From Escherichia coli (GTDB lineage: Bacteria; Pseudomonadota; Gammaproteobacteria; Enterobacterales; Enterobacteriaceae), in the NCBI RefSeq assembly GCF_045037415.1, contig NZ_CP173438.1: a DNA stretch of 64,000 bases; one strand, written 5' to 3'. Position 1 is the first letter of the stretch. Each line of letters starts with the position of its first letter. A program made the translations under genes and the position numbers. Shown piece after piece: positions 18,865-19,465 of this stretch. A model generated the notes under the pieces. The model had not been told where the DNA came from, made no database searches, and was given only the letters and a program-made list of their open reading frames with translations.

Positions 18865-19465
18865 ATGAATTATGCATTGATAATCGCTATTATAATATCG
18901 TTCCCCTGTGCATTATTATCAGTTTTTCTGGTATTAAAAGGCTGGGCGCTAATAGGAGATGCAATGAGCCACGCAATGTTTCCTGGCATAGTTCTAGTCT
19001 GGATTATAGGTATGCCGCTGGGAATTGGTGCATTTATTGTAGGACTGTCTTGTGCAATTGCAACTGGCTATCTGAAAGATAATAGCATTATAAAGAAAGA
19101 TACCATTATAGGTATCGTTTTTTCAGGAATTTTTGTCTTGACTATCAACAGGCACAAGTCAGCGGATTACAGATATCATTATTACATTACGGTTTACTCT
19201 GCATGGTATCGCCTACCATTTTTGCCACATTAAAAGCAGTCGGAATTATTCTGTCTATATACTATTAATAGCTCCAGGGTCTATTGCTGTCCTCATCATG
19301 CATCGCTTTCATAAGGCATTACTTATCGCCGTAACGATATCAATAACAATATCAGGCGTATGGTTATTATATTTTCTCAACAGAGCCCCAGCGCCGACAA
19401 TCGTCCTCTTATTTGCTGTAGCATTTCTTTTCGCGCTGATAATAATCAATTTTCGGAAACAATAA
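18865..19465 (+). pseudogene. Decayed ABC-3 family metal-ion (Mn/Fe/Zn type) ABC transporter permease, frameshifted and internally deleted
   Basis: ORF 18865-19233 contains LKGWALIGDAMSHAMFPGIVL...KDTIIGIVFSGIF, the signature N-terminal region of ZnuB/MntB/SitC-SitD-type permeases; the C-terminal TM region continues in another frame to ~19465; total length is too short for an intact permease. Confidence 0.6.

What the first reader, a model, noticed from the sequence alone, without database searches (positions are those of the whole stretch)
18865..19465. Pseudogenised Sit/Mnt/Znu-type metal ABC permease as the only cargo left in the remnant
The fragment encodes the hallmark LKGWALIGDAMSHAMFPGIVL...DTIIGIVFSGIF region of ABC-3 permeases but is frameshifted and too short, and no ATPase or binding-protein gene accompanies it. 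It may be the last trace of a horizontally acquired manganese/iron uptake operon (sitABCD-like loci occur on prophage-like islands in some Shigella and E. coli), now decayed.
Basis: inference. Interest (0 to 1): 0.4.

Follow-up and report, generated by a model that had tools for sequence, protein, structure and literature searches.

The report
Dead sitD gene in Rac relic
This is an ordinary, long-dead fragment of a manganese/iron transporter gene (sitD). It is the last readable piece of a sit operon that once sat at the tail-fibre end of a Rac-type prophage between uspF and ttcA in E. coli, and reference annotation already marks it as a pseudogene.

Summary
Window 18850-19465 encodes, in three different reading frames, about 70% of an ABC-3 permease (Pfam PF00950, model positions 1-94 and 152-256 of 258). 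It is specifically SitD-type: 72% identity to E. coli SitD over the first 95 codons, against 37% to SitC.

There are three lesions:
- a 5' truncation at 18848/18849, which also removed sitABC;
- a net 169-nt internal deletion (SitD 104-161) at 19135-19139;
- a 1-nt deletion at 19260-61.

No sitA, sitB or sitC is present in the 64-kb window. RefSeq annotates the same 601 bases as a frameshifted "metal ABC transporter permease". The relic is present in 1034 of 5426 complete E. coli genomes.

In 488 other genomes an intact sitABCD lies directly next to uspF, in the same orientation, as end-cargo of a full Rac prophage integrated at ttcA. Sequenced lambdoid phage genomes carry the same cassette.

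The relic is not a recent copy of that allele. It shares only 67-70% nucleotide identity with it, sits on a long branch, breaks 15 of 111 invariant SitD columns, has 38% GC, and evolves at a neutral rate.

It is not quite the only leftover. A hok toxin relic and DUF977, DUF1627 and intR fragments lie beside it.

Verdict: an ordinary decayed prophage cargo gene, of low interest.

The parts
18821..18848 (+). Left boundary. This is the first part of an older integrase 'box II' scar that belongs to the native uspF-ttcA spacer of E. coli. In the window it is cut off after ...CCCCTCTAATC.
   Evidence: Alignment with an empty-site genome (L056). Homology to the uspF flank runs to about 18848-18856. 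The empty-site spacer continues CGTACCATACACGCCACAGTTTT (NPYHTRHSF) and matches the window's intR fragment at 76% over 51 nt. 5404 of 5426 genomes share only the bases up to about 18848.
18850..19134 (+). sitD relic, segment 1. Frame +1, corresponding to SitD residues 9-103. Codons 1-8 and the whole of sitABC are missing.
   Evidence: tblastn with E. coli SitD: 68/95 identical, E 6e-44; SitC gives only 37%. Pfam ABC-3 model 1-94. NCBIfam E 3e-21.
19135..19139 (+). Scar of an internal deletion. SitD codons 104-161 (174 nt) are replaced by 5 nt, a net loss of 169 nt, which also shifts the frame from +1 to +3.
   Evidence: blastn against canonical sitD: window 19135 pairs with L010 18009 and window 19138 pairs with L010 18181. 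tblastn frames. Pfam model positions 95-151 are absent.
19140..19259 (+). sitD relic, segment 2. Frame +3, corresponding to SitD residues 162-201 (DYQQAQVSGL...KAVGIILSI).
   Evidence: tblastn frame +3; three-frame translation. 34 of 40 residues are identical to E. coli SitD, read from the alignment.
19260..19261 (+). Remainder ('ta') of the Ser202 codon. This is a 1-nt deletion that shifts the frame from +3 to +2. In frame +3 two stop codons follow directly.
   Evidence: Sequence read against the tblastn segments.
19262..19465 (+). sitD relic, segment 3. Frame +2, corresponding to SitD residues 203-273 plus a stop codon. It contains two 2-codon in-frame gaps and has a C-terminal tail 12 codons shorter than canonical SitD.
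   Evidence: tblastn 41/69 identical, E 4e-18. Pfam ABC-3 model 152-256.
19466..20561 (.). AT-rich (31-39% GC) stretch with no long ORF and no homologue outside this locus, apart from the hok relic inside it. Interpreted as eroded prophage DNA.
   Evidence: Composition. Distant blastn against E. coli genomes, phages and plasmids finds only the same locus. Also negative: tblastx, PHROGs on the ORFs, Rfam. The 59-aa ORF has only same-locus hits.
19739..19798 (-). Relic of a hok-family type I toxin gene. The C-terminal half is readable as VTKKDLHQVRI*GGQMEVDI, with an in-frame stop.
   Evidence: 82% nucleotide identity over 62 nt to hokD; tblastx to hokD in L012 and L059.
20562..20712 (-). C-terminal fragment of a DUF977 / Ren-like prophage gene.
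   Evidence: 75-82% nucleotide identity to DUF977 genes of Rac-type prophages. PHROG 142, E 1.6e-6.
20692..20809 (-). Internal fragment of a DUF1627 prophage gene.
   Evidence: RefSeq annotation. 84.5% nucleotide identity to the DUF1627 gene of a full Rac prophage. The order DUF1627, DUF977, hok on this strand matches Rac-type prophages.
20819..21050 (+). The last 76 codons of the Rac integrase gene intR, followed by the 51-nt spacer to ttcA (ttcA is at 21102-22037).
   Evidence: Window 20819-21400 is 98.3% identical to intR-ttcA of strain MB07011. Annotated as a partial tyrosine recombinase.

Best explanation
The fragment is a non-functional relic of a sitD gene. sitD encodes the second membrane permease of a SitABCD-type manganese/ferrous-iron ABC importer.

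Proposed history. A Rac-type lambdoid phage carrying a sit operon in its accessory region (between the tail-fibre genes and the attachment site) integrated into the 5' end of ttcA, using the IntR integrase. This placed sitABCD right next to uspF. The prophage then died and was whittled down by successive deletions:
- one deletion removed the rest of the native spacer, the right attachment site, sitA, sitB, sitC and the first eight codons of sitD;
- one removed 169 nt inside sitD;
- a 1-nt deletion shifted the frame again;
- larger deletions removed the late genes, most of the replication/nin region, and everything from the DUF1627 gene to the last 76 codons of intR.

What remains is about 2.2 kb between uspF and ttcA. 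It drifts neutrally under AT-biased mutation and does nothing for metal uptake.

What is shown directly: the homology, the lesions, the synteny with intact Rac-sit prophages, the neutral rate, and the long branch. What is inferred: the order of the deletions, and that the relic's sit operon entered on the same prophage as the neighbouring fragments.
For: Homology and lesions:
- SitD-type ABC-3 homology in three frames.
- Lesions mapped at nucleotide level.

Synteny with intact sit operons on prophages:
- 488 of 5426 complete genomes have uspF, then a duplicated ttcA 5' fragment, then sitABCD, facing the tail-fibre genes.
- In strain MB07011 that prophage is a full Rac: racR, kilR, recET, ralR, xisR and intR next to ttcA.
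- The window's intR fragment plus ttcA is 98.3% identical to it.
- The fragments DUF1627, DUF977 and hok lie on the minus strand in the order seen in Rac-type prophages.
- Sequenced lambdoid phage genomes carry sitABCD between the tail fibres and int. A second prophage, at icd, has the same layout. [quoted passage not shown]

Evidence of decay:
- 15 of 111 SitD-invariant columns are changed, against 0-3 for any intact member.
- Terminal branch length is 0.165, against 0.02-0.075 for intact members.
- GC at codon positions 1/2/3 is 0.44/0.36/0.33, against 0.54/0.385/0.56 in canonical sitD.
- Divergence between the window allele and the Nissle-type allele is 1.6% in the relic, against 0.2-0.7% in flanking genes.
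- Different strains carry different extra indels (P0001, P0028).
Against: - The right attachment site (the duplicated ttcA 5' end) is deleted in the window, so it cannot be shown formally that sitD' lay inside the prophage boundaries.
- The relic shares only 67-70% nucleotide identity with every known sitD. Its neighbours show very different identities to modern Rac (intR 98%, DUF1627 84%, DUF977 75%). The pieces may therefore have different histories.
- No less-eroded copy and no intact close relative was found in 5.8 billion proteins or in GTDB species representatives. The source operon is therefore inferred, not observed.
- The divergence is larger than neutral decay within the carrier lineage can explain (1.6% between carriers). 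Much of it must predate the relic's fixation.
Confidence: 0.85

Rival explanations
1. The relic comes from a sit-like operon on a different, non-Rac island or element (or an old chromosomal operon) that happened to lie next to uspF. On this view the Rac fragments beside it (DUF977, DUF1627, intR) are an unrelated, later deposit.
For: The AT-rich block 18849-20561 (31-39% GC) contrasts with the intR fragment (about 50% GC, 98.3% identical to modern Rac). sitD' is equidistant (65-69%) from all sampled SitD proteins, and its tree position is unresolved. In one divergent SitD subclade (P0090) the operon lies in a non-phage, zinc-starvation-type gene neighbourhood.
Against: The position and orientation are exactly those of sitABCD in 488 Rac lysogens. 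The AT-rich block itself contains a hok relic collinear with Rac-type early-right operons. Empty-site genomes have only 175 nt between uspF and ttcA, with no trace of sit. This argues against an ancestral chromosomal operon.
Confidence: 0.1
2. The 122-aa ORF (18865-19233) is a living gene. It would encode a truncated three-helix membrane protein derived from SitD, for example one that modulates the canonical SitCD permease present elsewhere in most carrier genomes.
For: The ORF has an ATG at the conserved Met14 position. It is present in about 19% of complete genomes. About 95% of carriers also hold a canonical sit operon. Weak promoter-like matches exist at 18828-18884.
Against: - It starts 60 nt after the uspF terminator.
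- Its last 27 residues are out-of-frame junk.
- The invariant DAMSHA serine is replaced in the Nissle-type allele.
- Other strains carry indels inside or just after the homologous part (P0028, P0001).
- The divergence rate equals that of the neighbouring non-coding DNA.
- PGAP calls it a pseudogene.
Confidence: 0.03
3. The fragment derives from another ABC-3 permease (SitC, MntB or ZnuB type) rather than SitD.
For: General NCBIfam models (AztB, SloB-type) are the best named HMM hits, because no SitD-specific HMM scored.
Against: 72%, 85% and 59% identity to SitD in the three segments, against 37-43% to SitC. The ZnuB model does not hit the relic at all. The NJ tree places it inside the SitD clade relative to SitC. 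The best database hits are SitD proteins.
Confidence: 0.02

Closest known systems
SitD of the E. coli / Shigella / Salmonella SitABCD Mn2+/Fe2+ ABC importer (Pfam ABC-3, PF00950)
   Same: Same family and same subunit type. There is collinear homology to SitD residues 9-103, 162-201 and 203-273. The relic sits in the same genomic position and orientation as sitD in Rac lysogens that carry sitABCD next to uspF.
   Different: About 70% amino-acid and 67-70% nucleotide identity only. It is 5'-truncated, lacks 58 internal codons, and is frameshifted twice. It has no sitA, sitB or sitC. GC is 38% against 49%. It breaks 15 of 111 invariant columns.
Rac prophage of E. coli (integrated at ttcA; intR, xisR, recET, racR ... 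stfR, tfaR), in the variant that carries sitABCD at its tail-fibre end
   Same: The intR 3' end plus the 51-nt spacer plus ttcA is 98.3% identical. The DUF1627 and DUF977 fragments are in the right order and on the right strand. The sit gene is at the uspF end.
   Different: Only about 2.2 kb of roughly 54 kb is left. The right attachment site is gone. The sit allele and the hok relic are not those of the sampled Rac prophages.
Phage-borne sitABCD cassettes: EAEC 042 prophage 042p3, 'PAI sit' of Shigella flexneri, and lambdoid phages such as LR595860
   Same: The sit operon is carried as accessory cargo between the tail-fibre genes and the attachment site of lambdoid phages, at several chromosomal attachment sites (PMC7545054).
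   Different: Those cassettes are intact and 96-100% identical to each other. The relic is a dead, deeply diverged allele.

Membership tests
ABC-3 metal permease family (Pfam PF00950) | Significant match to the family profile | tested here: met
   PF00950 E 2.5e-25 and 1.9e-18; NCBIfam ABC-3 permease models E 3e-21 to 4e-29.
ABC-3 metal permease family (Pfam PF00950) | Full-length domain in one open reading frame (a functional member) | tested here: not met
   Model positions 95-151 are absent. The homology is spread over three frames, and NCBIfam scores are far below the curated cut-offs (102 vs 280 bits).
SitD subunit (as opposed to SitC, MntB or ZnuB) | Closer to SitD than to the paralogous permease, and inside the SitD clade | tested here: met
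   72% identity to SitD against 37% to SitC. NJ tree with SitC as outgroup. Top database hits are SitD proteins.
SitABCD operon | Adjacent genes for the binding protein (SitA), the ATPase (SitB) and the first permease (SitC) | tested here: not met
   tblastn with SitA, SitB and SitC finds none in the 64-kb window. The relic abuts the uspF terminator.
SitABCD operon | Transport of Mn2+/Fe2+ | not testable with these tools
   This needs uptake assays. The lesions make function implausible.
Rac-type prophage remnant at ttcA | intR 3' end directly upstream of ttcA, with the phage-derived ttcA 5' end | tested here: met
   98.3% identity over 582 nt to intR-ttcA of a full Rac prophage, with the same 51-nt spacer.
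Rac-type prophage remnant at ttcA | Right attachment site: duplicated ttcA 5' fragment (ttcC') next to uspF | tested here: not met
   Present in lysogens (L010 14706-14747) but deleted in the window. The uspF flank stops at about 18848.
Rac-type prophage remnant at ttcA | Other prophage genes in collinear order | tested here: met
   DUF1627, then DUF977, then hok on the minus strand, as in L059 and L063.
Pseudogene (neutrally evolving) | Disrupting lesions plus loss of purifying selection | tested here: met
   Three lesions. 15 of 111 invariant columns changed. 1.6% divergence against 0.2-0.7% in the flanks. Strain-specific indels.

The most novel reading that the evidence does not exclude
The relic may record an otherwise unsampled, deep-branching sit lineage that occupied the accessory region of a Rac-type phage before the carrier lineage diversified. 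That would mean Rac-type phages captured sit operons at least twice, from different sources. A separate and less likely reading is that its 5' ORF survives as a small SitD-derived membrane protein that interferes with the canonical SitCD permease, which is found in about 95% of carrier genomes.
Probability: 0.05. Interest if true: 0.35.

Novelty: already known. Interest (0 to 1): 0.12.

Why it matters
It matters little on its own. It is a textbook case of prophage erosion: accessory cargo outlasting the phage that brought it, then decaying under deletion bias and AT-biased mutation.

It has some practical use:
- The relic is a stable lineage marker. It has one shared junction in about 19% of complete E. 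coli genomes, including Nissle 1917-type and '131'-type strains.
- It should not be counted as a sit virulence or iron-uptake gene in genotyping. Carrier genomes almost always have a separate, intact sitABCD elsewhere.
- Together with the older integrase scar in the 'empty' uspF-ttcA spacer, it shows that the ttcA site has been occupied and cleared repeatedly.

Tried and rejected
- P0001, a 199-aa 'full-length-looking' protein at 79% identity, looked like an intact short homologue. It is the same E. coli locus with a 1-nt deletion at 19193 that fuses frame +1 to frame +2. Its middle part is out-of-frame relative to SitD.
- A search for a closer intact relative found nothing above about 74% identity in any segment. 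This covered 5.8 billion proteins and a peptide-pattern scan of GTDB species representatives.
- Distant DNA searches of the relic plus the AT-rich block against phages and plasmids returned only canonical sitD at about 68% and two same-locus 'plasmid' records.
- Rfam on 18700-21200 gave nothing below E 0.4.
- PHROGs on ten small ORFs of the AT-rich block gave only the DUF977/Ren-like fragment.
- The 59-aa ORF 19854-20033(-) has only same-locus hits.
- The promoter/terminator scan gave only weak consensus matches plus the uspF terminator.
- I considered that the 'empty' uspF-ttcA site might derive from the window-type structure by deletion between the two integrase-like TAATC sequences. I rejected this because the empty-site spacer is only 76% similar to the window's intR over 51 nt and keeps the native ttcA 5' end.
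- Fisher et al. 2009, the primary description of sit islands, is not held in the library. Its content is cited only through PMC7545054.
- Assignment to SitC, MntB or ZnuB was rejected.

Full report
**Where the window comes from.** The window is E. coli chromosome. It is 100% identical over the tested stretches to strain DETEC-E480 and many others. The local gene order is nifJ, ompN (17068-18201), uspF (18342-18776), the finding (18865-19465), about 1.1 kb of AT-rich DNA with no annotated gene, a DUF1627 fragment, an integrase fragment, then ttcA (21102-22037) and dbpA. RefSeq/PGAP annotates exactly 18865-19465 as 'metal ABC transporter permease, frameshifted'.

**Checking the observation.**
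- That ORF alone hits NCBIfam ABC-3 permease models at E 3e-21, over profile positions 13-105 of 271.
- A three-frame translation and tblastn with the four Sit proteins of an E. coli sitABCD operon show that the homology continues in other frames:
  - SitD residues 9-103 at 18850-19134, frame +1, 68/95 identical, E 6e-44;
  - SitD 162-201 at 19140-19259, frame +3, 34/40 identical;
  - SitD 203-273 at 19262-19465, frame +2, 41/69 identical.
- Pfam places the frame-corrected translation on PF00950 positions 1-94 and 152-256 of 258.
- SitC, the paralogous permease, gives only 37-43% identity.
- No SitA, SitB or SitC homologue exists anywhere in the window, apart from an unrelated ABC ATPase at 49413-50024.

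**The lesions.** Nucleotide alignment with canonical sitD, read against the sequence, gives three disrupting lesions.
1. A 5' truncation. The uspF flank, shared by 5404 of 5426 genomes, ends at about 18848. sitD homology starts at 18850 with codon 9. Codons 1-8 and all of sitABC are therefore gone.
2. SitD codons 104-161 (174 nt) are replaced by 5 nt at 19135-19139. This is a net loss of 169 nt and changes the frame.
3. The Ser202 codon is reduced to 'ta' at 19260-61, a 1-nt deletion. Two stop codons follow in the old frame.

There are also two 2-codon gaps and a tail 12 codons shorter than canonical SitD. These may be natural variation.

**Is there an intact operon at the same site elsewhere?** Yes.
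- The contig holding a common E. coli SitD (P0015) reads nifJ, ompN, uspF, sitA, sitB, sitC, sitD.
- A search with that stretch shows 488 of 5426 complete genomes with uspF directly followed by sitABCD in the same orientation as the relic.
- In these genomes sitD faces the tail-fibre assembly and tail-fibre genes of a lambdoid prophage. A duplicated ttcA 5' fragment lies between uspF and sitA.
- Following the prophage in strain MB07011 to its other end shows a complete Rac prophage: trkG, DUF977, DUF1627, ydaV/U/T/S, racR, sieB, kilR, recE, recT, ralR, xisR and intR, then ttcA.

The sit operon is thus accessory cargo at the tail-fibre end of Rac. The same cassette occupies the equivalent place in other settings:
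- sequenced lambdoid phage genomes, between the tail fibres and int, for example LR595860;
- a prophage integrated at icd in strain THO-006.

The literature says the same for EAEC 042 prophage 042p3 (PMC2808357) and describes an unstable 'PAI sit' at several chromosomal sites (PMC7545054).

**The neighbours of the relic are Rac debris.**
- Window 20819-21400 (the last 76 codons of intR, the 51-nt spacer and ttcA) is 98.3% identical to MB07011.
- Window 20692-20806 is 84.5% identical to that prophage's DUF1627 gene, and 20587-20700 is 74.8% identical to its DUF977 gene. The latter also hits PHROG 142, Ren-like.
- Further on, on the same minus strand, 19739-19798 is 82% identical to hokD and reads VTKKDLHQVRI*GGQMEVDI against HokD VTRKDLCEVRIRTGQTEVAV.
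- The order DUF1627, DUF977, hok on that strand is the order seen in a Rac-type prophage of strain M11.
- The rest of 19466-20561 is 31-39% GC. It has no ORF above 59 aa, no RNA-family match, and no homologue outside this locus.

So the sitD relic is the only metabolic cargo left, but it is not the only leftover.

**An older scar under the relic.** In genomes with an 'empty' site, uspF and ttcA are 175 nt apart. That spacer itself contains AATCCGTACCATACACGCCACAGTTT, which reads NPYHTRHSF. It is 76% identical over 51 nt to the box-II coding region of the window's intR fragment. The native spacer is therefore itself a scar of a still older integrase. The window keeps that scar only up to ...CCCCTCTAATC (18848). 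This means the deletion that truncated sitD began in native DNA beyond the right attachment site. It also explains why no attachment-site duplicate is left in the window.

**The relic is old and evolves neutrally.**
- It is only 67-70% identical in nucleotides to canonical sitD.
- Over the 202 shared alignment columns it is 65-69% identical to each of 14 intact SitD proteins from Enterobacterales and Aeromonas. Those proteins are 71-94% identical to one another.
- It changes 15 of the 111 columns that are invariant in the intact set. A leave-one-out test gives 0-3 for any intact member.
- In a neighbour-joining tree rooted with SitC it lies inside the SitD clade, on a terminal branch of 0.165 against 0.02-0.075 for the others. 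Its position is unresolved: basal in 52% of bootstraps, and with either subclade in about 24% each.
- GC at codon positions 1/2/3 is 0.44/0.36/0.33, against 0.54/0.385/0.56 for canonical sitD. Most replacements at invariant sites are G/C to A/T changes (V to I, M to I, Q to K, D to N, W to L and so on).
- Between the window allele and the Nissle-type allele the relic differs at 1.6% of sites and the AT-rich block at 1.5%. This compares with 0.2-0.7% in ompN, uspF, ttcA and dbpA.
- Other strains carry additional indels: a 1-nt deletion at 19193 creates the spurious 199-aa ORF P0001, and another frame change appears in P0028.
- The 30% divergence from every known sitD is far more than decay within the carrier lineage can explain. 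The allele was therefore already divergent, or already dead, long before. No intact close relative exists in the databases searched.

**Distribution and redundancy.** The relic, with the same left junction, is in 1034 of 5426 complete genomes. The AT-rich block is in 1043. The junction is shared, which points to a single origin. Carriers include Nissle 1917 and its derivatives.

A 600-nt sitA probe hits 2382 genomes. A query joining sitA to a unique 600-nt piece of the relic's AT-rich block hits 2436 genomes and 1044 additional places. From these numbers, about 990 of about 1044 carriers (roughly 95%) also have a canonical sit operon somewhere, on the chromosome or a plasmid. Loss of this copy therefore does not mean loss of Sit function.

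**Mechanism.** As a gene it does nothing. It lacks 58 internal codons of the membrane domain (ABC-3 model positions 95-151), is out of frame twice, lacks its partner permease, ATPase and binding protein, and begins 60 nt after the uspF terminator at 18784-18803.

As a piece of genome history it is best explained in three steps:
1. lysogeny by a Rac-type phage with a sit operon in its accessory region;
2. inactivation of the prophage;
3. stepwise deletion and AT-biased drift.

The retained intR 3' end may persist because it supplies the 5' end, and probably the promoter, of ttcA. This is an inference and was not tested.

**Comparison with what is known, and novelty.** It is a decayed member of the SitD/ABC-3 family inside a decayed Rac prophage. 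Both families are well described. The pseudogene is already annotated at these coordinates in RefSeq, and sitABCD as prophage cargo is published. The finer points add detail but nothing categorically new: the deep-branching allele, the nested integrase scar, and the co-occurrence with an intact sit operon.

**Verdict.** Observation confirmed. Interpretation supported, with two qualifications. Novelty: already known. Interest: low (0.12).

Noticed in passing
window 19739-19798 (- strand): Relic of a hok-family type I toxin gene. It is 82% identical in nucleotides to hokD and has an in-frame stop. Its N-terminal half is no longer readable. It is not annotated in RefSeq.
   Followed up: partly
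window 18821-18848; locus L056 2068-2120: The native uspF-ttcA spacer of 'empty-site' E. coli contains an integrase box-II remnant (..NPYHTRHSF..). The supposedly unoccupied ttcA site is therefore itself a scar of an older prophage. The window keeps only its first part.
   Followed up: partly
window 20819-21101: The last 76 codons of intR and the 51-nt spacer are 98.3% identical to an active-looking Rac. They diverge less between carrier alleles (0.4%) than the AT-rich relic does (1.5%). Possibly this piece is retained because it carries the promoter and 5' end of ttcA.
   Followed up: no
window 1-6678 (- strand): Part of an 8.5-kb CDS that RefSeq names 'EntS/YbdA MFS transporter'. NCBIfam shows it is a BigA-like autotransporter adhesin (E 6e-177). 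This is probably a product-name mix-up with YdbA.
   Followed up: partly
window 7006-7584: Back-to-back fragments of paaY and a helix-turn-helix regulator sit next to ydbL. This looks like a deletion scar where other strains (L010, L011) carry tynA-feaB-feaR and/or paa genes.
   Followed up: no
window 27324-28779 and 31105-31248: Further annotated pseudogenes in the window: a frameshifted DHA2-family efflux permease, and a short AbgT transporter fragment just upstream of ogt.
   Followed up: no
loci L006 11170-13557 and L007 4000-5365: In some strains with sitABCD next to uspF, a DDE transposase gene is inserted immediately downstream of sitD; in L006 a beta-lactamase gene follows it (ISEcp1/CTX-M-like layout), whereas the L007 contig ends before any such gene.
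   Followed up: no
locus L062 (NZ_AP022533.1 2963698-2985355): The canonical sitABCD also lies at the tail-fibre end of a lambdoid prophage integrated at icd (an icd 3' duplicate lies beside it). The cassette therefore moves between lambdoid phages with different integrases.
   Followed up: partly
E. coli complete genomes: About 990 of about 1044 relic-bearing genomes also carry canonical sitA, against 44% of all genomes. The dead copy and a live sit operon almost always co-occur.
   Followed up: partly
PLSDB records CP054253.1 (162008-163759) and NZ_CP141085.1 (210540-212291): Two records labelled as 252-kb and 385-kb plasmids contain this chromosomal relic at 100% and 98.5% identity. They may be mislabelled chromosomal contigs or large chromosome-derived replicons.
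   Followed up: no
locus L060 5732-8828: The divergent SitD subclade (P0090, named Citrobacter farmeri by its source) lies in a neighbourhood of zinc-starvation-type genes: CobW-family GTPase, DksA-type protein, GTP cyclohydrolase FolE2-type, a Fur-family regulator, and extra ThrRS and CysRS copies. This suggests a zinc-linked role for that branch.
   Followed up: no
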